The translations under genes were made by a program, and so were the position numbers. A DNA stretch of 64,000 bases from an uncultured delta proteobacterium (GTDB lineage: Bacteria > Desulfobacterota > Desulfomonilia > Desulfomonilales > Desulfomonilaceae), in contig CAWBKB010000003.1 of assembly GCA_963789265.1 (NCBI GenBank), positions 1 through 64,000 of the forward strand, written 5' to 3'. Shown here piece by piece: positions 12,018 through 57,177 of the stretch. Position 1 is the stretch's first letter. Every line of letters begins with the position of its first letter. Under the pieces are notes generated by a model. It made no database searches and was not told the origin of the DNA. It was given only the letters and a program-made list of their open reading frames with translations.

Positions 12018-12036
12018 CATCAGGCAGGACAATACA

Positions 12037-29300: not shown

Positions 29301-29325
29301 CCCGATTGCTCCTAGTCCTTCTAAA

Positions 29326-30933: not shown

Positions 30934-30944
30934 TCCTCCGTGTC

Positions 30945-32867
30945 CTATCTCAGGACGAGATAACCTATTACCACCACGGCTCCTACGAGAATTGAAAGGG
31001 CGTAATCCTTGACAAGGCCGGTCTCGATCTCCCGTAGATAAGCGCCTCCACCTCGAACTAAGCGAGCCACGCCGTTAACGATTCCGTCAATGACCGCATC
31101 GTCAAAACCTTTCCAAAGCAGCCGTGAAAAGCTCACGATAGAGTTGACGAAGAGGAAATCGTACAACTCGTCTATCCAATACTTGTTGTACACAAGCCTG
31201 TGCAACCCGCTGAAGCGTTTGACCATTCTGTCCGCAAGAGAAGGCTCGATGAGGTACATTCGACGTGCCAGAATAAGGCCGGCTAAGGCTATGGCGAGCG
31301 CCACCCCCATAAGAACTAACTCCATGGTTACAGGGGAGTGCTCCAGATGGTGAGCCCTATTCAGGATTGTCTGGGCCGGGGCAAATACAGGTGCCAGAAA
31401 ATTCCCGAAACGCTGCCCACCTTCCCAGACAGGAACTCCTATGAATCCTCCCACAAGTGATAGAAAGGCCAGGATCATGAGAGGAATCGTCATAATAGGC
31501 GGGGATTCATGCAAATGGTGCGCGGTCTCGGGATCCACCCTCGATTTTCCCCAGAAAGTCATGCACATCGACCGGAACATATAGAAAGAGGTCATCAGGG
31601 CAGCTACAGCCCCAATAATCCAGAAGCCGACATGCCGATGCAGCGAGTAAAGAAGGATTTCGTCTTTGCTGAAGAAACCTGCGAACGGAACGATGCCGGC
31701 TATGGCCAGAGTACCGAAAAGATAAGTCCAGTGCGTGTGCGGCAATTGCCTTCGGAGGCCGCCCATCTTGCGCATATCCAATTCTCCGGACATGGCATGC
31801 ATGACGCTGCCCGCGGCAAGAAACAAGAGGGCTTTGAAGAATGCGTGGGTCATGAGATGAAAGATGCCCGAGGCAAATGCTCCCACGCCGCACGCCATGA
31901 ACATGTATCCCAATTGGCTGATAGTAGAATAGGCCAGCACGCGCTTGATGTCGAATTGAGTCATGCCTATGGTAGCTGCATAGAATGCCGTAGCCCCTCC
32001 GACGATCGCCACTACTGTCATAGAGGTTGGCGCCAGGGCGAACAACACGCTGCAACGAGCCACCATATAGACGCCCGCGGTCACCATGGTTGCAGCATGG
32101 ATTAAGGCACTAACCGGTGTCGGACCTTCCATCGCGTCGGGAAGCCACGTGTACAGAGGTATTTGCGCGGACTTTCCGGTAGCTCCGACGAAGAGCAATA
32201 ATGTGATGAGTGTTGCCAAAGTCCCGCCCGCGGCGAGTTTCTCCGGAGCAGCGGCAAAGACTTGGGTAAAGTTGAAGGTACCGAAAGTTACAAAAATGAG
32301 GAACATTCCAATGAGAAACCCAAAATCTCCTACCCGGTTTACGACAAACGCTTTCTTACCCGCGTCCGAAGCGGACTGCTTCTCATAGTAATAGCCGATC
32401 AAAAGATACGAGCAGAGACCGACCCCTTCCCAGCCCACGAACATCAAGAGGAAGTTGTTGGCAGTCACAAGGATCAGCATATTGAAGACAAAGAGATTCA
32501 GGTAAGCGAAAAAGCGGCGGAAACCTATCTCTCCGTGCATATATCCAATTGAATAGATGTGGATAATGCACCCCACGCCGCTTACCACCATCATCATCAC
32601 CATACTGAGCGGGTCAACGAGAAAACCTATGGGAACGGTCAAATTGCCCGACAACATCCACGTGTACATTATCTTCTGGAACGATCGAGATGCAGGAGGT
32701 GTCCCGAGAAGCTCAAGAAATATCAGCAGAGCCACAACAAAGGAAGCGCCCACCGAAACGGCCCCAATCCAACCTATGGCCTTCTCTGAAAAGCGTTTTC
32801 CTATAAGCCCGTTGATCAGGAATCCCAGCAGAGGAAACGAGGGTATTAGCCAGACCAGATCAGTCAT
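30945..32867 (-). CDS. nuoL: NADH-quinone oxidoreductase subunit L
   Basis: [33 protein letters not shown] and HAFFKALLF. Confidence 0.97.
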
Positions 32868-33111
32868 TCCAAGCTCCCGATTCGCGTTCGACGATAGAAG
32901 GTTCCGCTTTCACGTAAAGCATCTGACACATCAATCCTTAGTACTCAGTTTCTCAAATTCGGTCACGTATGCCGATTTGCCTAATGCCCGTACCGGAACT
33001 CTCTTCCGGTAGAACCGGCCTCCCCGCGTCCCGCGGGGTGCTTATGATTCGCCGGCAGGGACGCCGGCGCTACTGTGTAAGTGGCACCGTACTTGTGAAA
33101 CGCAGCACCGG

Positions 33112-33414
33112 TTACCATTTCATCAAGTTGATGTCATTGACGTCGACGGTTCCTTTCATCCTGAAGATGGCAACGGCAACGGCCAGTCCTACGGCCACCT
33201 CAGCCGCGGCGATAACCATGACAAACAGGACGAATATCTGCCCTTCGATTGAGCCCAGATAATGGGAGAAGGCCACAAACGTCAGGTTGACAGAGTTCAG
33301 CATCAGTTCCAGAGACATCAGAATGATAATCAGATTTCTACGAAACATCACTCCAATGACTCCCAGGCAGAAAAGAATCGCGGACAAAAACAGATAATGT
33401 TGTAAAGTGACCAT
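33112..33414 (-). CDS. nuoK: NADH-quinone oxidoreductase subunit K
   Basis: [21 protein letters not shown]. Confidence 0.96.
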
Positions 33415-33474
33415 TTGAGAATTCCTGAGAAAGATATAGAGTCTGTACCCGAGGACGAGCTTCTTTCAGTCTCT

Positions 33475-33975
33475 TCAAGACCTCTTCCGTGCCAGGATCA
33501 CCGTGCCGATAATTGCGGCCAGGAGCAAGATCGAGGCTATCTCGAACGGGAGGAGGTACGTGGTGAAGAGTGCCTTGGCAATGATCTGAGTATTGGACAT
33601 TTGGACGGCCTTTTCCGCGGCTGCCTTTCCCGAGGGTACAAAAACTTTCAGAATCGGGACCAGCAGCACCAGCACAACCACGGCCAAAGCAACACCTATC
33701 CACGAACGCAAAGCTCTTGGATCAATAGGCAGCCGCACCTGGTCCAGGTTAAGCAACATGATCACAAAGAGGAAGAGCACCATTACAGCTCCGGCATACA
33801 CGATGAGCTGCACCATGGCCACAAACTCTGCCTGAAGCAGGATGAATAGTCCTGCAAGGCCGATCATCGTTAGGATCATGAAAAGAACATTGTGCATGGG
33901 TCTCCGAAGGAAAACCACAAAGAAGGCTGATGCCACTGTGATGGCGCTTAAGATGTAGAAAATCAGAGCTTCCAT
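33475..33975 (-). CDS. nuoJ: NADH-quinone oxidoreductase subunit J
   Basis: AEFVAMVQLIVYAGAVMVLFLFVIM and YLLPFEIASILLL. Confidence 0.96.
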   Translation of the reverse strand: MEALIFYILSAITVASAFFVVFLRRPMHNVLFMILTMIGLAGLFILLQAEFVAMVQLIVYAGAVMVLFLFVIMLLNLDQVRLPIDPRALRSWIGVALAVVVLVLLVPILKVFVPSGKAAAEKAVQMSNTQIIAKALFTTYLLPFEIASILLLAAIIGTVILARKRS

Positions 33976-34050
33976 GGATGTTCCAAAACCTCCGCCGGTG
34001 AAGTTGGATCTACCGGCAATCACATCTGTTTAGGCTGACACGCCTGTTTT

Positions 34051-34500
34051 TCAGCCCGCCTTCTTCTTGGAGACGTACCTCGGTTCAGGAGGCTCGAGCA
34101 GCATTTCTTTGGTAAAGATGAGATCCTCCCGGCTGTATTCCGACAGCTCGTAAGCTGTGGTCATTTCTATGGCTTCTTTGGGGCAGACTTCCACACAAAA
34201 TCCACAGAATATGCACCGCCCCAGATCGAGGACGTAGCTCTCGGGATATTTTCTGTTATCGGGCTCCGCCGCTGCCTCGATCGTGATGCACTCCGCCGGG
34301 CAGACTGTGGCACAGAGCATGCACGCCACACATCGTATCTTTCCGGAGGGATGTTTGGTCAATACATGGCGGCCTCTCCACCTCGGTGCCACGTTCCATT
34401 TCTCATCCGGATATTGCAGGGTGACCTTCTTGGAGAAAAAGTAACTCAGCGTGAGTTTCAATCCCTGAATCAACGGGAGAATCATCTCGTGCAACCTCAT
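34051..34500 (-). CDS. nuoI: NADH-quinone oxidoreductase subunit I
   Basis: TLQYP, RWRG and two CxxCxxCxxxCP motifs. Confidence 0.96.
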   Translation of the reverse strand: MRLHEMILPLIQGLKLTLSYFFSKKVTLQYPDEKWNVAPRWRGRHVLTKHPSGKIRCVACMLCATVCPAECITIEAAAEPDNRKYPESYVLDLGRCIFCGFCVEVCPKEAIEMTTAYELSEYSREDLIFTKEMLLEPPEPRYVSKKKAG

Positions 34501-34607
34501 CGATTTATCGGGTCTTGAAGGATTCAACTTCAGGGCCTCATTTTCGGATCCGCTTCTTCCACCGACTTGTGCCGGAGCACGGCCTCACTGCACAAAGAGG
34601 CGGACTC

Positions 34608-35642
34608 TCAGTGTGTATACTGGAGCCAGACAGTGTAAATGAACGCAGTTGCCATTACATTGAACAGCCCGGCAGGCAGCAGCACCTTCCATCCAAAGGT
34701 CATTACCCTGTCATAACGAAGTCTCGGATAAGTGCCGCGAATCCAAACGAACACGAACACAAAGAAAAACATTTTAGCCATGAACCAGAAAATGGGGGGC
34801 AGGAATGGACCTTGCCATCCCCCGAAATACAAGGTGGTCATAAGTGCGCTCAAAAAGAGCAAGTGTGCGTATTCGCCCAGGTAAAATAAACCGAACTTCA
34901 TGGAACTATACTCGGTCTGATAACCCGCTACGAGTTCATTTTCACACTCTATGAGGTCAAACGGGGTCCGAGCGATTTCAGCGCTGCCGGCTATCATGAA
35001 CAAGATAAAACCAAGCGGCTGACGGAAGACATACCACTTCAAGATCGTGTCCTGGGCCTGAACGATTTGCACCAGACTGAGTGAACCCGCCAACAGCAGC
35101 ACGCCCACCACGGAAAGGCTGAGTCCTAGTTCGTAACTTATCATCTGAGCACTGGAACGGATTGAACCCAACAGTGAGTATTTGCTGTTTGAAGCCCACC
35201 CGCCGAGCACAACGCCGTAAACGCCCAGCGATGAAATGGCAAAAATATACAGTATCCCTACATTCAGGTCGGAGACTACTCCTTGATTGAGGCCGTACTT
35301 GGAGGCTAGCGGTCCTAGAATGCTTTCCAAGCCCAAGCCTTTGGCAAAGGGGATAACTCCAAAGGGTATCAAAGCGCAGACAACTACGATCAAGGGAGCG
35401 GCGAGGTAGATCATCCTGTTGGCGCCGGATACGGTGATTTCCTCTTTCATGAAGAGCTTGACCCCGTCCGCCAGCGGCTGAAGGAGACCCCAGGGGCCAA
35501 CTCGGTTGGGACCGATCCTAACCTGGATCCAACCGAGGACTTTACGTTCAATCAGCGTCAGGTATGCCACGAAGGTCAAGACTGCTCCGATGACAAGCAG
35601 TACCTTCACGACAACCAGGATGATAGGGAGGGCGGATTCCAT
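34608..35642 (-). CDS. nuoH: NADH-quinone oxidoreductase subunit H
   Basis: ERK..GPNRVG..QPLADGVKL, AQMISYE, RTPFD and PRLRYD. Confidence 0.97.
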   Translation of the reverse strand: MESALPIILVVVKVLLVIGAVLTFVAYLTLIERKVLGWIQVRIGPNRVGPWGLLQPLADGVKLFMKEEITVSGANRMIYLAAPLIVVVCALIPFGVIPFAKGLGLESILGPLASKYGLNQGVVSDLNVGILYIFAISSLGVYGVVLGGWASNSKYSLLGSIRSSAQMISYELGLSLSVVGVLLLAGSLSLVQIVQAQDTILKWYVFRQPLGFILFMIAGSAEIARTPFDLIECENELVAGYQTEYSSMKFGLFYLGEYAHLLFLSALMTTLYFGGWQGPFLPPIFWFMAKMFFFVFVFVWIRGTYPRLRYDRVMTFGWKVLLPAGLFNVMATAFIYTVWLQYTH

Positions 35643-35655: not shown

Positions 35656-38300
35656 TCAGCTTGCTATCTTTTCAACTTTGACTTTGACCACCGGCCGATC
35701 CCAACGGGTAATGCTGTTCAGCTTCCACTCGGGAAAATGTTGTGGGACTATGATGGAACCTTCCAACGCTCGGCGGGACGGTTTCACCTTCACTTGTATG
35801 GAGGTCCCGTCGGCATTGGTAATCTTCACGGTGTCCCCGGCCGTCAACCCCAGCGCCTTGAGATCTTTGGGGCTCATCTCCGCATCGCCGTTCGGGCAGA
35901 CTTCCTTCATTGCAGCGCTCCACTGCGACATCGAGCCTGAATGGAACTTGAGTATTCCCGGAATCAAGTACATAGTCGGCTCATCGGCAAGTGGTCCCTG
36001 AATCGCAGCCGCAGGCATAAATCGTGCCTTGCCGGCAGGGAAGCCCCCCTCGTAGAGAAGCTTCTTGCCGGTATCTTCCGCATCTACGCAGGGCCAATGA
36101 ATGCCTCCATCGGCAATCCGGTCGTAGGACACTCCTCGATAGACATTGACAAGGTCGGCGATCTCTTCCATCACCTGTTCCGGGCCGGCATAAGTCATCG
36201 AGGGTTTGCCCATGAGCGCGGCAAGGGCCGTGAAGATTTCCAGATCGCACTTGCCTCCGGTCGTCTTAAGCGCCGGGCGCAGACGTTGTACGAACCTGTC
36301 CGCGCTGGTATAGGTCCCGATCTTCTCGGCAAAGGAGGCCACCGGCAGGACCGCGTGAGCCATTTTGGCAGTAGAAGTGACGAATAGGTCCTGTACGACA
36401 AGGAACTCCAGCTTGGCCAAGGCCCTTTCGACCTGCGCTCTGTCGGGGTAGGTATCAAGCGGGTTCTCGCCCACAACATAAAGGCTTCTAATCTCACCAC
36501 TCTCAGCCTTTGCAAGGATCTCTGCGGCGCTAAGGCCCCTTTCCTGGGCAATTTAGCATCCCATGCCGCTTCGAACTTCGTTCGGGCAGCTTCATCCGTT
36601 ATGCTGTGGAAACCGGGCAGAAGTTCAGGGACCAAACCCATGTCAATGGCGCCCTGAGAGTTTGCCTTCTCACCAAGGACATGTACTCCGCATGCCTCTT
36701 TCCCGATGCGACCGGTTACAAGCGCCAGGTTCGCCGCTGCTTGAGCCGTTTCAATGTTGTTGCCCAGCCGGTTCATCCCCTGAGTAAGGATGATTGTTGC
36801 ACTTGCCGCTTTGGCATATTCCTCGGCTGCCTCCCGAATGAGGGCCGCATCCAGCCCGGTTAGTTTCGCCACGTTCTCCGGGGTGTAATCGGAAAGCGAG
36901 GCGATGAGATCATCCAAGCCTTCCGTTTTAAGATCCAAGGCTGTCCTGTCATAAAGCCCTTGATCAATGATCCACTTGAGCATGGCATTGGCCACAAGGT
37001 GTTGCGATCCGGGCCTGCTCAGCAGATAGAGACCCGGACGATCTGTAAGCTTGGTCCTCACGGAATCAATGACAATTACTCTCGCTCTGTTGCGGGCAGT
37101 AGCGCTGACCACCTCGTTCTTCGCTACGGGATGAGTCTCTGAAAGATCGGCTCCGATAAGGACAATCACCTGAGCCTTTCCGATCTCGCGAATCGAGTTG
37201 GTGCCGGCCGGGTACCCCAGCGACGGACCCAGCGCATCCACGAGCGCTCGGTATCCAAATCCGCCGGCATGGTCTAGGTGCGGGGTTTCCATGACGGTTC
37301 GGACAAACCGGTTGAAGACATAAGCCTCTTCGTTTGTAAGTCGCTCGGATCCTAACGCCGCTAGGCTCGAAGGGCCGGAAGCACTCTTTATTCTGTTCAG
37401 ACTATTCGCCACAAAGCTCAGCGCCTCGTTCCACTCCACCTCCCGCAACGATCCGTCCTTTCGGATCAAGGGCTTGGTGAGCCTTTCTTCGGAATAGATG
37501 TAAGGCCAACCGTACCGGCCTTTCACGCAAAGGTTTCCTTCGTTGGCACTGGTCGCTGGGGAAGTGACGTACACAATGTTTTTGTCTTTGGTTCCGAGAG
37601 TTAACATACAACCAAGGCTACAGAACGAACACGTGGTGTAAGTTTTCTTCAATTCAAACTCACGGCCGGTCCCCACAAGCCACTTGGAAGAGATCGCTCC
37701 CACAGGACAGATAGATGCACACTGGCCGCAGAATTCGCAATTCAAGGGACGGCCGAAATCAGTGGAAACTTCGCACGACATTCCTCTCTCAATGAAGCTC
37801 AACTCGTTTTCACCCTGAATCTCGTCGCAGATGCGCACACACATTCCGCATTTTATGCACAGGTTCATGTTGAACCGGATGAAATGCGATTCATTGTCAA
37901 CGTGGAAGTAGCGAGATTCCCGCGGAAAGGGAAGCTCTGCTATCTCGTATTCATGGACTAGCTCCTGAAGCCGGCAGTTACCCGCAGCGTCACAACTGGG
38001 GCAGAGCAGAGGATGGGACCGCAGGAGCAGTTGGAGCTGCATGCGACGACTTTCGATGAGTTTCGGGGTGTGGGTGGCCACTTCCATTCCGTCACGGGCC
38101 GGGTTGAAACACGCGGGCATGGTACGGGTGCGGCCCCGGGCAGTAACCTCAACTATGCACAACCGACATGCCCCGTACGGCACGAGTCGCTTATCGTGGC
38201 AGAGGGTCGGAACACGGATTCCGGCTTGTTGAGCGGCCTCCAGAATGGACGCACCGCGTTCGACAGTAACTTCAACGCCGTCGATGGTCAGGGTAACCAT
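35656..38300 (-). CDS. nuoG: NuoG / FdhA-like molybdopterin-fold Fe-S subunit, frameshift near 36540
   Basis: [2Fe-2S] (PTLC..GACRLC..PAC), HxxxCxxCxxxxxC, two ferredoxin-type [4Fe-4S] motifs, CSFCSLGC..C, then molybdopterin-oxidoreductase fold. Confidence 0.88.
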
Positions 38301-38380: not shown

Positions 38381-40177
38381 TTATCTGATCGCTCCGAACC
38401 TGCAATTCATGATGCAGGTACGGCATTTAGTACATTTTTCCGTGTCGATTCGGGCTACCTTCTTCTTTTCCCATATAATGGCCTCGGATGGGCAGTTTCG
38501 ATAGCAGAGGCCGCACATCTTACATTTGTCCTCTATGACCACGAAGTCTATGAGGCTCGGGCAAACCAGCGCGGGACAGTGTTTGTCACGGATATGGGCG
38601 TCGTATTCGTTCCTGAAATAGCGAATCGTAGAGAGAACCGGGTTCGCCGCACTCTTCCCGAGTCCGCAATGCGAAGTGCCGTTGATATGGTGGCCCAGCT
38701 CGATGAGAAACTCCACATCTCCTTCTTGTCCTCTGCCCTCCACTATATCTGTCAGCTTTTCAAGCATCACCTTCAGGCCTTCGCGGCACGGAACGCACTT
38801 TCCGCAGGATTCTTCCACCGAGAAATCGGTAAAAAACCGTGCAGTATCTACCATGCACGTGTGGTCATCCATGACCACGACCCCGCCGGACCCCATCATA
38901 GCTCCCACGCCGGTCAAGGATTCGTAATCAATTTCGACGTCCTCCATGCCCGTGGGGATACAGCCCCCGGATGGTCCGCCTATCTGCGCTGCCTTGAACT
39001 TCCGTTTCTTGGGGATGCCTCCCCCGATATCGAAGATCAGGCTTTTCAATGAGGTCCCCATGGGGACTTCAACCAGGCCAACATTATTGACCGCGCCGGT
39101 GAGCGCAAAGACCTTTGTGCCTTTGCTTCCTTCGGTGCCGATGGACGCGAACCATTCTGCACCATGAAGTATGATGGGGTTGATGTTGGCGAAGGTTTCG
39201 ACATTGTTAAGGTTCGTAGGCTGATTCCACAGGCCCGCTTCCGCGCTGCGTGGAGGTTTGATGCGAGGCATGCCCCGTTTGCCTTCAATGGAGTACATCA
39301 GGGCCGTGGATTCGCCACAGACAAACGCGCCCGCACCGGGGTAGATTTCAATGTCGAAATTGAAGCCCTTGTCGAGGATATCGGTCCCCAGGAGTCCGTA
39401 ACCGCGAGCATCGTTAATGGCCTTCTGGAGCCGCTGAATGGCAAGCGGATACTCGGCCCGCACGTAGATGTATCCTTTTTCCGCTCCGATGGCGTATCCC
39501 GAAATAGCCATTCCTTCCAGCACTGAATGGGGATCGCCTTCCATCACAGAGCGGTCCATAAAGGCTCCCGGGTCTCCTTCGTCGCCATTGCATATCGTGA
39601 ATTTCGGGAAACTTTCGTATCGGCGGCACTCTTCCCATTTCAGCCCGGTGGGGAACCCTCCGCCCCCGCGACCCCTTAGTCCCGACTTTTTGACCTCCTC
39701 GATGACCGCTTCGGGAGTCATTTCTTCGAGGACTTTGGCCAATGCCGCATATCCGTCCCGAGCGATGTATTCGTCAATGTTTTCAGCGTCTATAAGGCCG
39801 CGGTTGCGAAGCACTGTCAATCTTTGCAGGCCAAAGAAGCCTATGTCCTTCATCAGAGGGACGCGGTCTTTGGCCATCTCTTCCTTGAAAAGGAGTTGCT
39901 CTACAATTCTACCTTTGAGCACGTGCTCTTCGACAATAAGAGGCGCGTGTTCCGGCTTAACCTGGTTGTAGAAAATGCCTTCCGGATAAACCACGACCAA
40001 AGGGCCCATTGCGCAAAAGCCGTTGCACCCGGTCATGATTATCTGCACTTCGTCCTGGAGGTTCCTTTTTGCCAATTCTTTTTCAAGCGCTTCTCTCACT
40101 TCCAAAGAACCACTGGCCATGCATCCTGTGCCTGCGCACATCATGAACTGCATTCTATAAAAAGGGCTGGCACTCAT
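38381..40177 (-). CDS. nuoF: Long NuoF (HydB/HndC-type) flavoprotein subunit
   Basis: N-terminal thioredoxin-like [2Fe-2S] domain, SGLRGRGGGGFPTG, DEGDPGAFMDR, GGPSG, SCGKCVPCR..C and C-terminal 2x[4Fe-4S]. Confidence 0.95.
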   Translation of the reverse strand: MSASPFYRMQFMMCAGTGCMASGSLEVREALEKELAKRNLQDEVQIIMTGCNGFCAMGPLVVVYPEGIFYNQVKPEHAPLIVEEHVLKGRIVEQLLFKEEMAKDRVPLMKDIGFFGLQRLTVLRNRGLIDAENIDEYIARDGYAALAKVLEEMTPEAVIEEVKKSGLRGRGGGGFPTGLKWEECRRYESFPKFTICNGDEGDPGAFMDRSVMEGDPHSVLEGMAISGYAIGAEKGYIYVRAEYPLAIQRLQKAINDARGYGLLGTDILDKGFNFDIEIYPGAGAFVCGESTALMYSIEGKRGMPRIKPPRSAEAGLWNQPTNLNNVETFANINPIILHGAEWFASIGTEGSKGTKVFALTGAVNNVGLVEVPMGTSLKSLIFDIGGGIPKKRKFKAAQIGGPSGGCIPTGMEDVEIDYESLTGVGAMMGSGGVVVMDDHTCMVDTARFFTDFSVEESCGKCVPCREGLKVMLEKLTDIVEGRGQEGDVEFLIELGHHINGTSHCGLGKSAANPVLSTIRYFRNEYDAHIRDKHCPALVCPSLIDFVVIEDKCKMCGLCYRNCPSEAIIWEKKKVARIDTEKCTKCRTCIMNCRFGAIR

Positions 40178-40249: not shown

Positions 40250-40636
40250 TTAAGTGGCCTGTGTCTCGCTCCCGCGAGCAAGGGCGTAATCCTCAACGGC
40301 CTTGCCTCCAATGACATGCTCGTTGAATATTCGAACGGCCTTCTCTTTGGTGAGGAGGATGTATTTGACCGGCGACTGGTCGGCAACTTCGACAGTTATC
40401 ATCGGCTCTTTGGCGCACAGGCCGGCGCAACCGGAATTGGTCAGAAGAACGTTTGTGATTTCTTTCTGTGCCATGATGTTCCGAAAGGTCGTCAAAATAT
40501 CGCGGGCCCCGGCAGCAATTCCGCACGTCCCCATGTGTACGGTAATTTTTGCCCGGAACTCTCCCTCGCGGAGCACCATTTTGGTTCGTTGCTGCTCTTT
40601 GATCTTCTTGAGGTCCTGTATGGAAATTTTAGCCAT
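40250..40636 (-). CDS. Thioredoxin-like (2Fe-2S) ferredoxin (HndB/HydD-type)
   Basis: ITVHMGTCGIAAGAR..SGCAGLCAKEP..EHVIGG. Confidence 0.9.
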   Translation of the reverse strand: MAKISIQDLKKIKEQQRTKMVLREGEFRAKITVHMGTCGIAAGARDILTTFRNIMAQKEITNVLLTNSGCAGLCAKEPMITVEVADQSPVKYILLTKEKAVRIFNEHVIGGKAVEDYALARGSETQAT

Positions 40637-40704: not shown

Positions 40705-41221
40705 TTATTGATAGCCTTCAAGTATCTTCACCGTGTCTGTCGGATTAATGTTACCGTGGGTATCCTCTCCTATCAGCATGACCGGGGCCAGACCGCAGGC
40801 CCCCAAACACCGTACTGCCTCAAGAGTGAATCTGCCGTCCTCGGAGGTTTCGCCAACATTAATGCCGACCTCTTTTACTATGTTCTCCAGGATCTCTTTC
40901 GAGCCTTTGACATAGCAGGCGGTTCCCAGGCACAGACGGATGGTATGCCTCCCTCTCGGGGTGATAGTAAAGAACGAATAGAAGGTCACAACACCATAAA
41001 TGTGAGATGAAGGAATATGCAAGCCGTCCGCTAACTTTCGCTGGACCTCCATGGGAAGATATCCGTACAAATCCTGAGCCTCTTTGAGAGCAGGGATAAG
41101 ATATCCGGCCCGACCTCCGGTACTTGTCTATGATCCCACCGAGTTTCTCCAGCTCTTCAGGCGGCAGAATCTCAACCTGCGGTTCATCTTTCTTCTTTAG
41201 TATCGAGTCTCGTTCTTGCAC
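40705..41221 (-). CDS. nuoE: NuoE (HydC/HndA-type) [2Fe-2S] subunit, frameshift near 41115
   Basis: YGVVTFYSFF, CLGTAC and CLGACGLAP; GTG start at 41221. Confidence 0.92.
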
Positions 41222-41257: not shown

Positions 41258-41803
41258 TCACTCGGAAGCGATCTCACGGAGTCCCGAAAGAATATTGTCC
41301 CGGATGAGTCCTATAATCTGGGGGTTGTTAATCGGGATCTCTTCCAGCTCCAAGCGTATCTCCCTTGTATCCAGGGTGTACTCTTTGCCATCTTTCTTAT
41401 GTGTGTAAACCAAATCAACTGCCGGATTGCCCTCAATCAGGGCAAGAAGCGTATCTACCATGTCGCCCATGGGCTTCCGGTCGATATGTTTATGACTCAT
41501 GAAAACCGACACCTTCGTTCCGTGTCCAGGGATGGAATCCACCTTGAGATCGCCCTCGGCTTCTCGTGCGGCCTGTTGAAACAATGACAGCCCGAGTCCC
41601 ACTTTGCGAGTGGTACGCGTCGTGGTGAAAGGATCAAGGACTTTGGCCAAGAATTCCGGGTCCATGCCACGACCGTTATCTTCGATGATTATCGTCAGCC
41701 TGTCGTCTCGCCGATTCTCCTCTATGGTTATGTTGATCAGATCGGCCCCGGCTCTCACCCCGTTTTCGGCCACGTCCAGAATGTGCAGAGAGAGATCCTG
41801 CAT
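41258..41803 (-). CDS. Stand-alone HATPase_c (histidine-kinase-like ATPase)
   Basis: N-box DVAENG, G1 DNGRG, F-box DPF and G2 GLGLS. Confidence 0.9.
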   Translation of the reverse strand: MQDLSLHILDVAENGVRAGADLINITIEENRRDDRLTIIIEDNGRGMDPEFLAKVLDPFTTTRTTRKVGLGLSLFQQAAREAEGDLKVDSIPGHGTKVSVFMSHKHIDRKPMGDMVDTLLALIEGNPAVDLVYTHKKDGKEYTLDTREIRLELEEIPINNPQIIGLIRDNILSGLREIASE

Positions 41804-41842
41804 GCCTAATGTTCAGTATACGGATCGAAATTTCTGAAAGCG

Positions 41843-42661
41843 TTACGGTCCGTCGCCCATTGTTTTCAGTTCCAGTATCCTTCTGCCCCCGCGATTGCCC
41901 AAGGCATTTCTGAACTCGTCAAAACTGGCTTCGGCGAGCATCGCCAAGGTCATCGCGGCACCCACATCTTCGAGGCAATGGGCATCGGACGAAGCGATCA
42001 TCGGGTAATCAGCGCACTGAGGGTATCTTGCCCGGAGCTTCTCGATGCCGGCTCTTTTCGAGATTTCCAGTGCGTCGAGTTGCAGCCCCTCCGGGACAAA
42101 TCCCAATTGGCCGAAGATCCCGAATCCCGCTCTATCCACATGAGATGCGATAGCCAGACCTCGATTATCGTGGACCAAGCGGACGACCTTTTCTGCGCTC
42201 AGAGTCGTGGCCCCTATGAGGAGCCTTTCGTCAAGGTCTTCTACTTGGTCATATTCATCTACTACCGCCTGGCAGCCGAACACGATTTCGTCATTCTGCC
42301 CGAAAAGCCTGGCGTAAACCTCTTCCTGGACGGCTTCGACATCCGAATCGGACGAAAACAGGCCCAAAATGTGAACTTCTTCCGAGGTGGTAATTTCCAT
42401 CCCCGGAAGAACCGTCAACCCGGTCCCTTCTGCTGCCCGCCTGGTGGCGGCCGCATTCCTCGCAGAGTTGTGATCGCAAACAGCGATCATGTCGAGGCTT
42501 TTGTCCAGAGCCGCCCGCACAATAGCCCGCGGTGTCATCTCCGCTATTTCGGTGCAGGGAGACAATACCGTATGAATGTGTAGGTCAAGCTTGTAAAGCT
42601 TAAGATCGACCTGCCAACCTCTTTTGCCTTTGGCCGCAATTCCCGGCTCTTTATCAAACAA
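41843..42661 (-). CDS. PHP-domain metal-dependent phosphoesterase (true start probably about 50 nt downstream)
   Basis: DLHIH, DHN, E..H, SH and SSDAH motifs. Confidence 0.9.
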   Translation of the reverse strand: MFDKEPGIAAKGKRGWQVDLKLYKLDLHIHTVLSPCTEIAEMTPRAIVRAALDKSLDMIAVCDHNSARNAAATRRAAEGTGLTVLPGMEITTSEEVHILGLFSSDSDVEAVQEEVYARLFGQNDEIVFGCQAVVDEYDQVEDLDERLLIGATTLSAEKVVRLVHDNRGLAIASHVDRAGFGIFGQLGFVPEGLQLDALEISKRAGIEKLRARYPQCADYPMIASSDAHCLEDVGAAMTLAMLAEASFDEFRNALGNRGGRRILELKTMGDGP

Positions 42662-42717
42662 GGGCGGGGAAGCCGAGTATTGATTTGCATTCCTGATTCC
42701 ACAGCAATCCTTGCGTC

Positions 42718-43062
42718 TCAGGATATGCGGCGAACCCCCATCTCATATAGTTTGCCTGCCAACTCGTAAGTCGGCATGGAACTTACCAGAATCGGGACAC
42801 CCTGCTCTTCGGCTTTCTTCAGGGTGTCGGGCTCCGGCTCGCGGCCGCCCACAATAACTATCCCTGCCAGGTTGTTCAGGAACGCAACCGCCACGATGTT
42901 CTGATGGAGCTGTAGTGTGATCCAGAGATCACCTTCTCTGGAACCGGCGATCACATCGCTGAGAAGGTCGCTCACATATCCGCCTTCCACAATACGGCCC
43001 ATGTCAAGGCGACCTGTCCTGATTTCCAGCCCCAAAGCATCCGCTACTTCTCCCAGGGTCAT
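42718..43062 (-). CDS. DRTGG-domain protein (HPr kinase N-terminal-like)
   Basis: GGYVSDLLSDV..LWIT..NIVAVA. Confidence 0.85.
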   Translation of the reverse strand: MTLGEVADALGLEIRTGRLDMGRIVEGGYVSDLLSDVIAGSREGDLWITLQLHQNIVAVAFLNNLAGIVIVGGREPEPDTLKKAEEQGVPILVSSMPTYELAGKLYEMGVRRIS

Positions 43063-43084
43063 GAATGGCTCCCCAACCCGTCGG

Positions 43085-44284
43085 CTATCGGTCGACTTCC
43101 GCCAAAACGATATCCACACTGGAGAGTATCGCAATCAAATCGGAAAAAAAGTATCCCTTGCCCATCCGTGGGAGGGATTCAAGATTCACGAACGCAGGTG
43201 CCCGCCATTTGAGTCGATACGGCCTGGGGCCGCCGTCGCTGACTATGTAGCAGCCAAGTTCACCCCGTGGAGATTCAATACATTGGTAAACTTCGCCGAC
43301 AGGCGGCTTCAACCCTTCCACTACGAGCATGAAATGATGGATGAGTGATTCCATCTTGGTGTAAATATCTTCTTGAGGCGGAAAAATCACTCCAGGCTTT
43401 TGCGCCCGCACAGGGCCATAGGGCAGCCTGTCCAAAGTCTGGCGCAGTATGCGATTGCTCTGCCTCATCTCCGCGACCCGGACCAGATATCGTGAGTACA
43501 CGTCGCAGCCGGTCTCGACCGGTACATCGAAGTCGTAATATTCGTACCCACAGTATGGTTCCCGCTTCCTGATGTCCCAGGCCAACCCGGAAGCCCGGAC
43601 CATCGGGCCGCTTGCCCCCAGAGCGATGGCCTCTTCAAGAGGCAGTATCCCGATGCCCTTTGTCCGGTCCATGTAGATAACGTTCTTTGTGAGCAGAGTT
43701 TCGTACTCGTCCACCCTTCGATCGAAGTGCTCGGTGAACGAGCGCAGCCGGTCGACAAATCCTTCTTCCAAATCTCGTATGAGCCCGCCGATCCTCAGAT
43801 AGTTCGGCATGAGGCGGCCACCTGCCGTGAGTTCGAAGAGATTCATAATCTCTTCGCGTTCTCTGAGCATATAGAACATCGGCGTCATTGCGCCGACGTC
43901 GTGCCCATGCGTGCCCAGCCAAAAGAGATGGCTGAAAATGCGGGACAACTCGGCCATCATCACCCGTATGACCTGAGCTCTTTCCGGGACGTCCACGCCG
44001 AGGAGTTTTTCCACAGCCAGGCAATAAGCGAGAGAATTGCTGGATGCTCCCATATAATCGCAACGCTCCGCCAGCGGGATCACCTGGTGGTAGTGTTTGT
44101 TCTCGCAGGTCTTCTCATAACCCCTGTGTAGATATCCCAGGTGCGGCACCACATCTACAACTAGCTCGCCATCGAGCTCGACTACGGCTCGGAACACTCC
44201 GTGAGTGCTGGGATGATGAGGTCCTAGATTTAGTTCCAGGAGTTCGCTACTGAAATTGAGTTTTGGGCTCACTTGTTCGCTCAT
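43085..44284 (-). CDS. nuoD: NADH-quinone oxidoreductase subunit D
   Basis: GPHHPSTHGV, GYLHRG, RCDY, ESPRGE and DIVLAEVDR. No NiFe-binding CxxC pairs. Confidence 0.96.
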   Translation of the reverse strand: MSEQVSPKLNFSSELLELNLGPHHPSTHGVFRAVVELDGELVVDVVPHLGYLHRGYEKTCENKHYHQVIPLAERCDYMGASSNSLAYCLAVEKLLGVDVPERAQVIRVMMAELSRIFSHLFWLGTHGHDVGAMTPMFYMLREREEIMNLFELTAGGRLMPNYLRIGGLIRDLEEGFVDRLRSFTEHFDRRVDEYETLLTKNVIYMDRTKGIGILPLEEAIALGASGPMVRASGLAWDIRKREPYCGYEYYDFDVPVETGCDVYSRYLVRVAEMRQSNRILRQTLDRLPYGPVRAQKPGVIFPPQEDIYTKMESLIHHFMLVVEGLKPPVGEVYQCIESPRGELGCYIVSDGGPRPYRLKWRAPAFVNLESLPRMGKGYFFSDLIAILSSVDIVLAEVDR

Positions 44285-44309
44285 GAGCTGTTTTCCTCGG
44301 GGTCCGCTC

Positions 44310-44807
44310 CTATGCGGGCAAGTCGGGAGTATCTTCTTCGGTTCCGTACAGAGGGAAGTCTTTCCTTAGAGGATGAACGGTCCATCCTTCCGGAAGGAGG
44401 AGCTTCCGTGGATCGGGGTGGTTCTTAAAGGTTATGCCGAACATTTCGGCCGTTTCTCTCTCGTGCCAGTTAGCCGTAGGCCAGATGGGCACCACCGAAT
44501 CAATCGATGGTTCACTTTCAGCCGTATCTTCCAGCAGCGCCTTTATTCGAAATCGGTGATTGTGTTTCAGGGAATGGAGTTGGTAAACAACCTCGAAACG
44601 GGGGGTCTTCGGATACCTGTCCACTGCACCTACAAATGAGAGGAAGTCGAAGGACAGCTCGGGATCTTCTTTCAGATAACGGCAGACATCCAGGATCTTT
44701 TCCATCGTTACCGTCAAGCTGATCTGATCGCGAAATTCGACCGCGGTCTGTATTGTATCCGGTCCAAACTGGGCCAGAACCTTCTCTTTAATGTCTTCCT
44801 GTTTCAT
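44310..44807 (-). CDS. nuoC: NADH-quinone oxidoreductase subunit C
   Basis: [23 protein letters not shown]. Confidence 0.96.
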
Positions 44808-45313
44808 CTAGCGGCTGCCTTGATGCTTGTTACACGGGGATTGTGGATGGACTGCTCCTTCAGGACCTTGGCGTGAAGCTGTAAAATTCCGTCCACCAAT
44901 GCCTCGGGTTTGGGAGGGCAGCCAGGGATGTAGACATCCACCGGGAGGTGGCGGTCGATGCCTTGCACCACGGCGTAATTCTTGTAGATACCGCCGGTAC
45001 ACGCGCAAGCCCCCATGGCAATCACCCAGCGGGGTTCTGCCATTTGCTCATAGATTCTGAGTACCGCGGGGAGCATCTTCTTGGAGGCAGTACCGGAAAC
45101 TATCATCAGATCCGCATGCCGTGGAGAAGGTCGGAACACTTCCATGCCGAACCGGGAGAGATCGTACCGGCTGACAACCGTGGCTATCATCTCGAGAGCG
45201 CAGCATGCTAAGCCGAAACCCAGCGGCCACATGGATGACTTGCGCGCCCAGTTGACGAACCATTCGAGGTTGGTGACGTGAACGGTGTCGTTGAGATGTC
45301 CTTTTATTCCCAT
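44804..45313 (-). CDS. nuoB: NADH-quinone oxidoreductase subunit B
   Basis: [20 protein letters not shown] and IPGCPP; start overlaps the nuoA stop. Confidence 0.96.
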
Positions 45314-45660
45314 TCCAATGCACCTTTTTTCCAAACATAAACGAGGCCCAAGAGGAGAACCACCACGAACACGAACATCTCCGCGAAGCCAAACATCTTC
45401 AACTGGTCGTAAATGGTCGCCCAGGGAAATAGGAAGATCAGTTCGATGTCGAAGACGATGAAGAGCATCCCCATTACAAAGAATCGGACTGAAAATCGTC
45501 GTCTCGCGCTTCCTATGGGATCCATACCGCATTCATACGGCATCAACTTGATCGGTGTAGGGTTTCTCCCGGCCAAAAGCGTGGAAAGCACAATAATAGC
45601 CAGGCCTATGAATGCGGATATCAGCAAAATCACCAGGATGGGAAGGTAGCTGTTGGTCAT
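45304..45660 (-). CDS. nuoA: NADH-quinone oxidoreductase subunit A
   Basis: PYECG, FDIE and KKGALEW. Confidence 0.96.
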
Positions 45661-45812: not shown

Positions 45813-46775
45813 TCAAGGTTTTTTTCCCGCTCTTCTCGTCGCCCCCGGGAGAGTATCTCCGAAAAGAAAAGCTATGTCAAGCCTGGTTCCGGCTCCGGGT
45901 TCAGACACGAGCCTCATCGTGTCCGAGCATCTTTTAATATTAGCCAAGCCCATGCCGGCACCGAATCCCATGTCTCGAATCCATTCCGGAGCGGTGGAGA
46001 AGCCCGGCTGAAGAACTTGTTGCAGGTTATCTATTCCGGGGCCGTGGTCAACTGCGGACACCATTAGCCGACCCTGACGAATTTCTACAGTTATTTCCCC
46101 GCCCACGTCAGTGTGTATAACGAGATTCATCTCGGCCTCGTATACCGCCACAGCGACTCTTCTCACCAGAGGCGGTAAAAATCCGAGCCGTTGAAGAGAT
46201 TTCTTGATCATGCTGGATGCCTTGCCCGCATTGGCAAAATCTTTGTCATTCACTATGTAACGCAAAGTGACGCTTGTATCGTCGGACTCGATGTCCTCGA
46301 ATATGTGGCTTGCGCGGTATGTTTGCAGCTTCTCGGCTTCCTTCTTCTGAAAGCTCACGTCCATTTCACGCAGAAGCGCCCTAATCACTGTGCCCGTGGT
46401 AAGGATGCCCACCAGTTTCCCGTCTCCGTCCACCACAGGCAATCTCGCGAATCCATGTCCGCCGAGATTGCTCAGGGCCTCCGTCAGGGACGCGTCCTTC
46501 GATACGGTCTTAACCTCCCGCGTCATGTTATCCGCGGCCCGCGTGCTCAGCAGCCCTTTTTCCATCGCGTCGATCACGTCGGTCATGCTCAGGATGCCGA
46601 CGATTCGGTCTCCATCAAGCACCGGCGCACCGGTAATGCGCTTGGCCCGCATCAACTCCTTCACATCGGCCATAGACATGGAGGGGTCGATCACGATGAC
46701 GTTCGGCGCCATGACGCTTTCCACTCTTGTGGTGTAAATCAACTCCTGAACTTTGGTGATTTCCTGGATAGTCAT
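45813..46775 (-). CDS. CBS-pair plus RsbT/RsbW-like Ser/Thr kinase (HATPase) fusion
   Basis: Two CBS domains, then YEAEMN, DHGPGI, GFSTA and GFGAGMGL. Confidence 0.9.
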   Translation of the reverse strand: MTIQEITKVQELIYTTRVESVMAPNVIVIDPSMSMADVKELMRAKRITGAPVLDGDRIVGILSMTDVIDAMEKGLLSTRAADNMTREVKTVSKDASLTEALSNLGGHGFARLPVVDGDGKLVGILTTGTVIRALLREMDVSFQKKEAEKLQTYRASHIFEDIESDDTSVTLRYIVNDKDFANAGKASSMIKKSLQRLGFLPPLVRRVAVAVYEAEMNLVIHTDVGGEITVEIRQGRLMVSAVDHGPGIDNLQQVLQPGFSTAPEWIRDMGFGAGMGLANIKRCSDTMRLVSEPGAGTRLDIAFLFGDTLPGATRRAGKKP

Positions 46776-46776
46776 G

Positions 46777-57161: not shown

Positions 57162-57177
57162 ACACAGAGGTAAGGGG

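What the first reader, a model, noticed from the sequence alone, without database searches (positions are those of the whole stretch)
39290..39340. NuoF Glu->Ser substitution (CGESTAL) predicts NADP(H) use
Seen: GAGAFVCGESTAL (TCC codon at 39308-39310, minus strand) instead of the near-invariant CGEETAL. Established: the second Glu (E. coli NuoF Glu183) contacts the adenosine ribose and excludes the 2'-phosphate of NADPH, and substituting it raises NADPH activity. Inference: this may be a natural NADPH-linked complex I. Ser(TCC) is at least two substitutions from any Glu codon, so a simple sequencing error is unlikely.
Basis: partly seen in the sequence, partly recalled or inferred. Interest (0 to 1): 0.7.

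Follow-up and report, generated by a model that had tools for sequence, protein, structure and literature searches.

The report
NADP-type pocket in complex I flavoprotein
The Glu-to-Ser change is real and conserved, and it lies in a hydrogenase-type flavoprotein built into a complex I operon whose nucleotide pocket matches a known NADP-specific enzyme, so this respiratory complex may burn NADPH instead of NADH.

Summary
Window 38381-40177 (-) encodes a 598-aa flavoprotein with GAGAFVCGESTAL, and the Ser codon TCC lies at 39310-39308. Ser290 aligns with E. coli NuoF Glu183.

The protein is not a canonical NuoF. It is a HydB/BfuB-type flavoprotein with an N-terminal [2Fe-2S] domain and a C-terminal 2x[4Fe-4S] domain. 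It sits in a complete nuoA-N operon in place of nuoEFG, which is the predicted, uncharacterised "Nuo-Bfu" of Schut et al. 2022. The host is a Desulfomonilaceae MAG.

The Ser comes with a second change, Arg310 in place of the aromatic residue 20 positions on. NADP+-specific T. kivui HydB has the same Ser/Arg pair. The pair is present in 119 of 119 closest homologues and in 60 of 80 related loci.

The same genome's canonical NuoF independently carries Gly and Arg at these two positions, and 0 of 30 family orthologues keep Glu.

One caveat matters: A. mobile WorB has Ser at this position yet uses NAD(H). NADP(H) use is therefore well motivated but untested. If it is true, ferredoxin is probably a co-substrate.

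The frameshifts in nuoG and probably nuoE are assembly errors.

The parts
38381..40177 (-). bfuB, the 'nuoF-like' gene: a 598-aa HydB/BfuB-type flavoprotein (P0001). It has an N-terminal thioredoxin-like [2Fe-2S] domain, an FMN/NAD(P)H domain, SLBB, an N3-type [4Fe-4S] domain and a C-terminal 2x[4Fe-4S] domain.
   Evidence: The best PDB matches are BfuB subunits aligned end to end (7t2r_B E=7e-243, 7q4v_B 2e-240, 8a6t_B 4e-221). The protein scores below all NCBIfam NuoF cut-offs.
39308..39310 (-). Codon TCC = Ser290, at the position of E. coli NuoF Glu183 (the second Glu of CGEE).
39248..39250 (-). Codon for Arg310 (KPPRS), at the position of E. coli NuoF Phe203 and T. kivui HydB Arg340.
   Evidence: alignment (T. 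kivui ...PPR...). One search gives E. coli F203 = E183+20. The PMC10021017 Fig. 4 legend names Arg340 as stabilising the nucleotide. Covariation is shown.
39584..39586 (-). Codon for Gly198 in NGDEGDPG. This is a weak third marker: G occurs in NADP-type T. kivui HydB, and A in several NAD-type enzymes.
   Evidence: and PMC9431212 passages. It is weak because, among 147 representatives, G also goes with Glu plus F/Y in 34.
40250..40636 (-). A 128-aa small thioredoxin-like ferredoxin-fold protein (HydD/HndB-like; that name is recalled). It has only three Cys.
   Evidence: sequence. One search gives weak 2Fe-2S ferredoxin matches below cut-off. It is conserved next to bfuB.
40705..41221 (-). bfuC/nuoE-like [2Fe-2S] subunit, split in this assembly by a 1-base insertion near 41119-41120.
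   Evidence: The extra base is unique to the window compared with L001, L003, L004 and L043, and it is absent from contigs of X3 and X5.
35656..38300 (-). bfuA/nuoG-like subunit: N-terminal 2Fe-2S and 4Fe-4S clusters plus a molybdopterin-like domain without the Sec/Cys-His catalytic pair. It is split in this assembly by a missing base near 36545-36549.
   Evidence: All 4 laid runs carry one extra base at 36545, including X1 and X2, which are otherwise identical to the window.
43085..45660 (-). nuoA (45304-45660), nuoB (about 44804-45322), nuoC (44310-44807), nuoD (43085-44284).
   Evidence: Pfam. NuoD is above the NCBIfam cut-off.
41258..43134 (-). Three genes inserted between nuoD and nuoE: a DRTGG-domain protein (42718-43134), a PHP-domain protein (41843-42661) and a histidine-kinase-like ATPase (41258-41803).
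   Evidence: They are conserved in orthologous loci.
45813..47178 (-). Two genes upstream of nuoA: a DRTGG-domain protein (46777-47178) and a CBS-pair plus HATPase protein (45813-46775).
27854..35642 (-). nuoH (34608-35642), nuoI (34051-34527), nuoJ (33475-34023), nuoK (33112-33414), nuoL (30945-32867), nuoM (29326-30933) and nuoN (27854-29300, split by a frameshift near 28200).
   Evidence: Pfam. NuoH is above the NF004741 cut-off.

Best explanation
The gene encodes the flavoprotein (BfuB, HydB-type 'NuoF') of a Nuo-Bfu complex. This is a complex I in which a BfuABC module of the electron-bifurcating hydrogenase family replaces NuoEFG. 

Its dinucleotide pocket has lost two residues. One is the Glu that hydrogen-bonds the adenosine 2'-OH and repels a 2'-phosphate. 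The other is the aromatic residue 20 positions downstream. In their places stand Ser290 and Arg310 (followed by Ser311), the same pair as in NADP+-specific T. kivui HydB.

Most likely the pocket binds NADP(H). NADPH would give a hydride to FMN, and reduced ferredoxin would feed the C-terminal 2x[4Fe-4S] domain. Electrons would then run through the NuoG-like, NuoI and NuoB clusters to menaquinone while NuoH and NuoL-N pump protons. The reaction may be reversible, making NADPH and reduced ferredoxin from quinol and proton-motive force.

Shown here: the sequence, the architecture, the operon, the conservation, the covariation, and a parallel change in the second complex I of the genome. Inferred: NADP(H) preference, ferredoxin coupling, the quinone type and the direction of the reaction.
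For: 1. Architecture. P0001 aligns over residues 6-597 with solved BfuB subunits and has the extra [2Fe-2S] and 2x[4Fe-4S] domains. It lies in nuoABCD-...-nuoE-hndB-[this gene]-nuoG-nuoHIJKLMN with no other nuoEFG. This is the 'Nuo-Bfu' layout described in PMC9304861 (passages).

2. Synteny. Of the 60 Ser/Arg loci, 45 have nuo genes on both sides and 9 on one side. The other 6 are too short to tell.

3. Pocket residues. Ser290 corresponds to E. coli E183 and Arg310 to E. coli F203. T. kivui HydB (8A6T) has Ser320 and Arg340 at the same places. That enzyme reduces NADP+ at 20.8 U/mg against <0.01 U/mg with NAD+ (PMC8578170 Table 4), and Arg340 is named as a nucleotide contact (PMC10021017 Fig. 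4 legend). NAD-type A. woodii and A. mobile HydB have Glu and Phe there.

4. Role of the Glu. This is stated for NfnB Glu-286 (PMC12018979 passage) and for FdsB Glu259. In FdsB, the E259R/G/H/Q variants and also L279R (Glu+20) gained NADP+ activity (PMC10671435 passages).

5. Covariation. Among 150 family representatives the pairs are Glu+Tyr 57, Glu+Phe 44, Ser+His 11, Glu+His 5, Ser+Arg 4, Ala+Arg 4 and Gly+Arg 3, with the rest singletons. In 11 phylogenetically independent pairs, the aromatic residue changes the same way in about 8.6, the other way in 1.1 and not at all in 1.4 (median sign-test p 0.02, FastTree).

6. Parallel change. The genome's canonical NuoF (G000 C3:918896-920170; it passes the NuoF equivalog cut-off) has Gly and Arg at the same two positions. 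Of 30 family orthologues, 0 keep Glu (27 Gly, 3 Ala; Arg 23, Gln 3, His 2, Leu 2). Of its 120 best homologues, 115 have Glu plus F/Y/H. The non-Glu rows form a single split with support 85.

7. Not a genome-wide drift. Three other paralogues in the genome keep Glu and Phe.
Against: 1. A. mobile WorB (9MQX_B) has Ser at the Glu position (CGESSAL, with His at +20) and the same GDEGDPG loop. Even so, WorABCSL is assayed with NAD and has NAD(H) bound in the map (PMC12318220 passages). I saw no NADP test in the passages read.

2. Only one biochemically characterised enzyme (T. kivui HydABC) carries the exact Ser/Arg pair.

3. The role of Arg340 rests on a figure legend. The paper's supplement could not be read.

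4. No Nuo-Bfu has been purified according to the papers found (one search finds one paper using the term). Its ferredoxin dependence is itself a prediction.

5. L058 sits inside the nuo-embedded clade and has Glu and Phe, so the architecture works with either pocket.

6. The Gly198 marker is weak.

7. The Morina et al. 2011 paper on E. coli E183 was not held. Its content is known here only through a citing paper and from recall.
Confidence: 0.55

Rival explanations
1. The pocket still uses NADH, alone or together with NADPH. On this view the Ser/Arg pair tunes nucleotide affinity, product release or flavin reactivity and does not switch specificity, as seems to be the case for WorB.
For: WorB has Ser at this position and uses or binds NAD(H) (PMC12318220 passages). 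Non-Glu variants are common in the family, at roughly 30 of 150 representatives, and most are uncharacterised. In FdsB, single Glu replacements gave added NADP+ activity rather than a clean switch (PMC10671435 passages).
Against: The exact Ser/Arg pair is that of an enzyme with <0.01 U/mg on NAD+ (PMC8578170 Table 4). Loss of both the 2'-OH-binding Glu and the aromatic residue happened twice in one family, in two distant paralogues (42% identity). Three other paralogues in the genome kept them, which points to directed change in the respiratory enzymes.
Confidence: 0.3
2. The BfuABC-like genes do not form the input module of the Nuo complex. Instead they make a separate soluble enzyme, for example a formate dehydrogenase or another Bfu enzyme, that happens to be encoded inside the operon.
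For: Regulator-like genes (DRTGG, PHP, HATPase) are interleaved in the operon. The NuoG-like subunit scores as well on the Fdh-alpha model as on the NuoG model. The sister-clade loci L060, L064, L067 and L068 have the BfuABC genes without adjacent same-strand nuo genes.
Against: The operon has no other nuoEFG. The gene order is kept in 54 of the 54 Ser/Arg loci long enough to show flanks. The NuoG-like protein lacks the Sec/Cys-His pair that the genome's true FdhA paralogues have. PMC9304861 reports co-expression of all Nuo-Bfu genes in Geobacter (passage).
Confidence: 0.08
3. The Ser is a sequencing or assembly error, or the gene is a decaying pseudogene, given the three frameshifts in the operon.
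For: nuoE, nuoG and nuoN are each split in the window.
Against: All three codon positions differ from Glu codons. The codon is identical in contigs of two runs and conserved in 119 of 119 close homologues. The nuoG frameshift is absent from those same run contigs. The nuoE and nuoG indels are unique to this assembly. bfuB itself is intact.
Confidence: 0.01

Closest known systems
[quoted passage not shown]
   Same: It has the same domain architecture and aligns over residues 10-597 (E=4e-221). It has the same CGESTAL, the same Arg at +20 (PPR) and the same GDEGDPG loop.
   Different: Its partner is an [FeFe]-hydrogenase (HydA), not a NuoG-like subunit and membrane arm. P0001 scores higher against the Glu/Phe-type A. 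mobile and A. woodii HydB (810 and 802 bits against 739), so the shared pair may be convergent.
Nuo-Bfu (Schut et al. 2022, PMC9304861): a predicted 14-subunit complex I with BfuABC in place of NuoEFG, for example in Geobacter sulfurreducens
   Same: BfuABC-type genes sit in the middle of a nuoA-N cluster, and BfuB has the extra clusters.
   Different: That paper predicts NADH plus reduced ferredoxin as donors. Here the pocket is NADP-type. The Desulfomonilaceae operon also carries DRTGG, PHP, HATPase and a small ferredoxin-like gene. I could not check which residues the Geobacter enzyme has.
E. coli NuoF and its Glu183 variants (Morina et al. 2011; not held here, known from recall and through PMC10671435)
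   Same: The FMN/NADH domain is homologous, and Ser290 aligns with Glu183.
   Different: E. coli NuoF is 445 aa without the N- and C-terminal cluster domains, and the variants were engineered single changes. The window's protein is a natural double change in a BfuB.
Acetomicrobium mobile WorB (PDB 9MQX_B)
   Same: It has BfuB architecture, Ser at the Glu183 position and the GDEGDPG loop.
   Different: It has ...KYIH... (His at +20, no PP). It uses or binds NAD(H) (PMC12318220). It is the main counter-example to reading Ser as NADP.
Rhodobacter capsulatus FdsB variants (PMC10671435)
   Same: It is a NuoF-like subunit. Glu259 and Leu279 (Glu+20) replacements, including L279R, gave NADP+ activity. 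These are the same two positions as Ser290 and Arg310 by spacing.
   Different: It belongs to a soluble formate dehydrogenase and the variants were engineered. The correspondence of Leu279 to Arg310 is inferred from the +20 spacing and was not aligned here.

Membership tests
Canonical NuoF (complex I 51-kDa subunit; NCBIfam TIGR01959, NF010120, NF008436) | Score above the curated equivalog cut-off | tested here: not met
   One search gives 483.9 against 558.65, 379.5 against 389, and 366.8 against 749. The genome's other NuoF passes at 575.6.
Canonical NuoF | Single FMN/NADH plus N3 module of about 420-450 aa, without extra Fe-S domains | tested here: not met
   The protein is 598 aa, with an N-terminal 2Fe-2S_thioredx domain and two C-terminal Fer4 domains.
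Canonical NuoF | CGEE motif with the second Glu (E. coli Glu183) and an aromatic residue at +20 | tested here: not met
   Ser290 and Arg310 occupy these positions.
BfuB/HydB (flavoprotein of the Bfu family, PMC9304861) | NuoF-like core plus an N-terminal [2Fe-2S] domain, a C-terminal 2x[4Fe-4S] domain and Cys after the N3 domain (B2/Zn site) | tested here: met
   End-to-end alignments to 7t2r_B, 7q4v_B and 8a6t_B and the Pfam domains. Cys pairs are visible in the sequence: C14/C19/C51/C55, C457/C460/C463/C503, C533/C538, and 2x CxxCxxCxxxC. The assignment of these Cys to clusters follows the cited structures and is inferred.
BfuB/HydB | Adjacent BfuC (NuoE-like) and BfuA (NuoG/HydA-N-terminal-like) genes | tested here: met
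Nuo-Bfu | bfuABC genes in the middle of a nuoA-N cluster that has no separate nuoEFG | tested here: met
   The layout is conserved in 54 loci.
Nuo-Bfu | Physical complex; quinone reduction driven by NAD(P)H plus reduced ferredoxin | not testable with these tools
   This is a prediction of PMC9304861. The term 'Nuo-Bfu' occurs in no other paper of the library.
NADP(H)-specific BfuB (T. kivui HydB type) | Ser at the second-Glu position and Arg at +20 | tested here: met
   alignment.
NADP(H)-specific BfuB (T. kivui HydB type) | Activity with NADP(H) and not NAD(H) | not testable with these tools
   Needs enzyme assays.
Formate dehydrogenase alpha subunit (considered for the NuoG-like gene) | Sec/Cys-His at the Mo/W site | tested here: not met
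   the window has ...GGFGYR... where the genome's FdhA paralogues have ...ARL*H... or ...ARI*H... (in-frame TGA). The orthologues likewise lack the pair.

The most novel reading that the evidence does not exclude
Desulfomonilaceae have re-tuned both of their complex I-type enzymes to NADPH. One is the Nuo-Bfu in this window (Ser/Arg). The other is a canonical, E. coli-like 14-subunit Nuo (Gly/Arg). This would make them the first natural proton-pumping NADPH:quinone oxidoreductases. In the Nuo-Bfu, NADPH and reduced ferredoxin would be confurcated onto menaquinone, or made from quinol by reverse electron flow. That would tie the NADP-linked Wood-Ljungdahl/C1 metabolism of these anaerobes directly to the membrane.
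Probability: 0.4. Interest if true: 0.8.

Novelty: new variant of a known kind. Interest (0 to 1): 0.62.

Why it matters
Complex I is treated as an NADH enzyme throughout biology. NADPH-using versions have been described only as engineered E. coli mutants (recalled, and cited in PMC10671435). My library searches found no natural case and no further work on Nuo-Bfu.

A whole bacterial family in which two unrelated complex I input modules changed the same two pocket residues gives a precise, cheap test of what sets NADH/NADPH choice in the NuoF fold. A Glu/Phe relative in the same operon type (L058) serves as a natural control.

If the hypothesis is confirmed, it changes how reducing power is budgeted in organohalide-respiring and sulfate-reducing Desulfobacterota. 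It would also give a template for NADPH-driven or NADPH-producing respiratory modules.

Tried and rejected
- **Sequencing-error or pseudogene reading:** rejected.
- **NuoG-like subunit as a real formate dehydrogenase:** rejected, because it has no Sec/Cys-His.
- **Gly198 in NGDEGDPG as an NADP marker (idea from PMC9431212):** it matches T. kivui but is weak, because Gly goes with Glu plus F/Y in 34 of 147 representatives.
- **Expression evidence:** no RNA holder was listed, so nothing can be said.
- **nuoE frameshift in the same strain:** X1 and X2 have no cover at 41119. Only relatives (X3, X5 and four loci) show the base is extra.
- **Morina et al. 2011:** not held.
- **JACS 2023 supplement:** unreadable, so any residue-level account of NADP+ binding there was not seen.
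- **Supplement of PMC9304861:** the held text has no 'Desulfomonile', so I cannot say whether this family was in their 51 Nuo-Bfu sequences.
- **Full-length word search with P0001:** timed out and was repeated on residues 140-540.
- **Earlier notes of this scan:** none for this genome.
- **PntB transhydrogenase:** not found with PF02233 in this 95.6%-complete genome. This is a weak hint only.
- **Geobacter Nuo-Bfu and C. autoethanogenum HytB:** their residues could not be checked because no named sequence was reachable.
- **Structure and complex prediction:** not run, because their outputs would not give ligand geometry.
Full report
**Observation**

The minus strand of window 39200-39440 reads ...ggt gcg ggc gcg ttt gtc tgt ggc gaa tcc acg gcc ctg..., with TCC at 39310-39308. 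The ORF 38381-40177 (-) translates without stops to 598 aa (P0001) containing GAGAFVCGESTAL, with Ser at residue 290. TCC differs from both Glu codons at all three positions.

Contigs of two public runs that hold this stretch at about 100% cover the codon without any difference (X1 record 6, X2 record 14). These runs may be the source sample, so they are a second data set and not a second organism.

All 119 of the 119 best homologues (90%-identity clusters, 88-98% identical over residues 140-540) have CGESTAL followed 13 residues later by KPPR.

**Which residue it is**

I searched the solved structures with the genome's canonical NuoF (see below). E. coli NuoF (7awt_F, 445 aa) aligns without gaps over chain residues 112-213. 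Counting along that row gives C180-G181-E182-E183 and F203 in ...KPPFP.... P0001 aligns to the same columns.

The role of this Glu is stated in two papers I read in passages. [quoted passage not shown] That Glu is the second Glu of the same motif, as judged by its spacing from Phe-281. In R. capsulatus FdsB, Glu259 binds the 2'-OH, and the E259R/G/H/Q variants gained NADP+ activity. So did L279R, 20 residues on. The same paper cites the E. coli work as giving higher NADPH affinity (PMC10671435). The E. coli paper itself (Morina et al. 2011) is not held, and what I say of it beyond that citation is recalled.

**What the protein is**

It is not a canonical NuoF. It falls below the curated cut-offs of all three NCBIfam NuoF models. 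It carries an N-terminal thioredoxin-like [2Fe-2S] domain and two C-terminal 4Fe-4S domains.

Its best solved relatives, all aligned end to end, are BfuB/HydB subunits of electron-bifurcating enzymes:
- A. mobile NiFe-HydB (7t2r_B, E=7e-243)
- A. woodii HydB (7q4v_B, 2e-240)
- T. kivui HydB (8a6t_B, 4e-221)
- A. mobile WorB (9mqx_B, 7e-207)

T. thermophilus Nqo1 and E. coli NuoF match only the core (E=9e-117 and 8e-100).

**The surroundings**

Read in the direction of transcription on the minus strand, the region holds:
- a DRTGG gene and a CBS/HATPase gene
- nuoA, nuoB, nuoC, nuoD
- a DRTGG gene, a PHP gene and an HATPase gene
- a nuoE-like gene
- a 128-aa ferredoxin-fold gene
- this gene
- a nuoG-like gene
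- nuoH, I, J, K, L, M, N

There is no other nuoEFG in the operon.

The NuoG-like protein has a molybdopterin-like domain but lacks the Sec/Cys-His pair. The genome's true FdhA paralogues show that pair, with an in-frame TGA. It is therefore an electron-transfer subunit and not a formate dehydrogenase.

This layout is the 'Nuo-Bfu' that Schut et al. 2022 predicted from genomes. They describe 51 sequences in BfuB clades 38 and 39, with BfuABC replacing NuoEFG, and they propose that it reduces menaquinone with NADH plus reduced ferredoxin. They cite co-expression in Geobacter (PMC9304861; abstract, passages and one supplement text). 'Nuo-Bfu' occurs in no other paper of the library.

**Organism and relatives**

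The best related records are Desulfomonilaceae MAGs, with L001 at 98% amino-acid identity. The window is C3:1-64000 of a 6.06-Mb, 9-contig genome.

| Pocket pair (E183 / F203 positions) | Loci of 80 |
|---|---|
| Ser + Arg | 60 |
| Ser + Gln | 2 |
| Ala + Arg | 2 |
| Ser + Ser | 1 |
| Glu + Phe/Tyr | 15 |

Of the 60 Ser/Arg loci, 45 show nuoA-D upstream and nuoH-M downstream on the same strand. Nine show one side before the contig ends, and 6 are too short to tell. They include Desulfarculaceae and Desantisbacteria MAGs.

Only one Glu/Phe locus is nuo-embedded (L058). The other 14 are ordinary Bfu clusters without adjacent same-strand nuo genes.

On a FastTree of 158 core sequences, the nuo-embedded proteins form one clade (12 rows, support 100; 11 Ser/Arg plus L058). 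The sister group (support 97) is Nitrospirota/Thermodesulfovibrionales with Ser/Gln, Ala/Arg and Ser/Ser. Both are nested among Glu/Phe proteins of Syntrophales and Desulfobacterales. These relatives are kin, so the counts describe one clade and are not independent events.

**The second residue and covariation**

NAD-type A. woodii and A. mobile HydB have CGEETAL...PPF. NADP+-specific T. kivui HydB has CGESTAL...PPR, that is Ser320 and Arg340.

T. kivui HydABC gave 20.8 U/mg with NADP+ and <0.01 U/mg with NAD+ (PMC8578170, abstract and Table 4). The cryo-EM paper names Arg340 with Phe205 as the contacts that stabilise the nucleotides (PMC10021017, Fig. 4 legend). 8A6T is the T. kivui model according to that paper's Notes. 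P0001 has the same pair, a Ser after the Arg where T. kivui has Thr, and the same GDEGDPG loop.

Among the best 150 representatives of 26,701 family members in a 1.84-billion-protein library, the pairs are:

| Pair | Count |
|---|---|
| Glu + Tyr | 57 |
| Glu + Phe | 44 |
| Ser + His | 11 |
| Glu + His | 5 |
| Ser + Arg | 4 |
| Ala + Arg | 4 |
| Gly + Arg | 3 |
| other pairs (a few per type, mostly single; some are poor alignments) | rest |

Eleven phylogenetically independent pairs differ in Glu versus non-Glu. In these, the aromatic residue changes in the same direction in about 8.6, in the opposite direction in 1.1, and not at all in 1.4. The median sign-test p is 0.02. The tree was a quick FastTree, and the two trait columns were not removed from the roughly 390 columns.

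**A parallel change in the second complex I**

The genome has six NuoF-type paralogues. One (C3:918896-920170, 425 aa) belongs to a second, canonical nuo operon at about C3:909000-923200. It passes the NuoF equivalog cut-off and is most like E. coli NuoF (E=1.4e-155). It has CGEGSAL...KVPRP, that is Gly at Glu183 and Arg at Phe203.

Its orthologues were sought in 61 family genomes, and the 30 loci fetched for the best matches were read. Of these 30, none has Glu. There are 27 Gly and 3 Ala at that position, and at +20 there are Arg 23, Gln 3, His 2 and Leu 2.

Of its 120 best homologues in the protein collection, 115 have Glu with Phe, Tyr or His. Only the four closest (82-89% identical) have Gly/Arg, and one has Gly/His. 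On a tree of 148 sequences, the 33 non-Glu rows form a single split (support 85, one change).

So the same two pocket positions changed twice, in two input modules that are only 42% identical. Three other paralogues in the genome keep NADEGDPG, Glu and Phe. A sixth paralogue (C3:1003033-1004802) has the WorB-like Ser/His pattern.

**What speaks against NADP(H)**

WorB of A. mobile has Ser at this position (CGESSAL...KYIH...), and also the GDEGDPG loop. Yet WorABCSL is described as needing NAD and ferredoxin, and NAD(H) is well resolved on its FMN (PMC12318220, passages). I saw no NADP test in the passages read. Ser alone is therefore not a safe predictor.

The inference rests on the full Ser/Arg pair, for which there is only one characterised enzyme. 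The loop marker proposed in PMC9431212 (Gly for NADP, Ala for NAD) is weak. L058 shows that the Nuo-Bfu frame also works with Glu/Phe. No Nuo-Bfu has been purified in the papers found, and I could not check the residues of Geobacter Nuo-Bfu or of NADP-specific HytB.

**Assembly quality**

nuoE, nuoG and nuoN are each split in the window. The nuoE extra base (about 41120) and the nuoG missing base (a C run at about 36549) are unique to the window when compared with four close loci.

All four laid runs have one more base at 36545, including X1 and X2, which are otherwise identical to the window. X3 and X5 lack the extra base at 41119, and X1 and X2 do not cover it. The nuoG break is therefore an assembly error. 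The nuoE break probably is too. The nuoN break was not checked. bfuB itself is intact.

**Verdict**

The gene is the BfuB of a Nuo-Bfu complex and not a plain NuoF. Its pocket carries the Ser/Arg pair of the one known NADP+-specific relative. A parallel Gly/Arg change in the family's canonical NuoF makes a lineage-wide shift of respiratory input towards NADP(H) the best reading.

I put this reading at about 0.55. Continued or dual NADH use is the main rival at about 0.3. It is a new variant of known kinds and is untested biochemically.

No natural NADPH-type complex I turned up in my searches: one search found 0 papers, and none of the listed titles or abstracts describes one.

Noticed in passing
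outside the window: G000 C3:918896-920170 (locus L086:886-2163, minus strand), within a second nuo operon at about C3:909000-923200: The genome's canonical, E. coli-like NuoF has Gly at the Glu183 position and Arg at the Phe203 position (CGEGSAL...KVPRP). Of 30 family orthologues, 0 keep Glu, while 115 of 120 homologues outside this clade have Glu plus F/Y/H. This is a second, independent NADP-type change.
   Followed up: yes
window about 41119-41120 (nuoE), about 36545-36549 (nuoG), about 28200 (nuoN): Three single-base frameshifts split nuo genes. The nuoG one is contradicted by contigs of runs that are otherwise identical to the window. The nuoE one is unique to this assembly. The nuoN one was not checked. 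They look like indel errors in the assembly.
   Followed up: partly
window 24627-25772 (-): A formate-tetrahydrofolate ligase ORF matches only profile positions 186-556 of 556, so its N-terminal third is missing from the frame, perhaps through another frameshift. A Wood-Ljungdahl/C1 gene thus lies about 2 kb downstream of the nuo operon.
   Followed up: no
L058 (MAG 'Modern_marine.mb.176'), match 10582-12357: This is the only nuo-embedded BfuB with CGEETAL...PPF. It is nested inside the Ser/Arg clade (72.6% identical to P0001), so it is a natural control or reversion.
   Followed up: partly
outside the window: G000 C3:1003033-1004802: Another BfuB paralogue has CGESSAL...KYIH, the WorB-like Ser/His pattern. 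Open frames of 645 aa that may be its counterparts recur in many family genomes. Its gene context was not examined.
   Followed up: no
window 41258-43134 and 45813-47178 (-): DRTGG, PHP, HATPase and CBS-HATPase genes are interleaved with the nuo genes. They are conserved across the orthologous loci, and also stand next to non-nuo Bfu clusters of Syntrophales and Desulfoluna. Their function in a respiratory operon is unexplained.
   Followed up: partly
window 40250-40636 (-): The 128-aa ferredoxin-fold protein between nuoE and bfuB has only three Cys (38, 70, 74), one short of the usual four-Cys thioredoxin-like [2Fe-2S] site. It has no Pfam hit at E<=0.001.
   Followed up: no
outside the window: G000 C1:2103802-2104890 and C4:138966-140252: Formate dehydrogenase alpha paralogues have an in-frame TGA followed by His at the catalytic position, which fits selenocysteine.
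   Followed up: no
window 12792-13472, 15267-16271, 47522-49378, 55863-57161; also 4286-6100, 6568-8076, 57079-58209, 58439-59971: The window holds resolvase and integrase genes, two DNA methylase-domain ORFs, and several ORFs of 376-604 aa with no Pfam match at E<=1e-6. These may be mobile or defence-related islands flanking the operon.
   Followed up: no
L061 (Thermodesulfovibrionales MAG): The sister-clade BfuABC cluster (Ser/Gln pocket) lies next to nuoA-D and nuoH homologues on the opposite strand. This is a different, divergent arrangement of the same parts.
   Followed up: no
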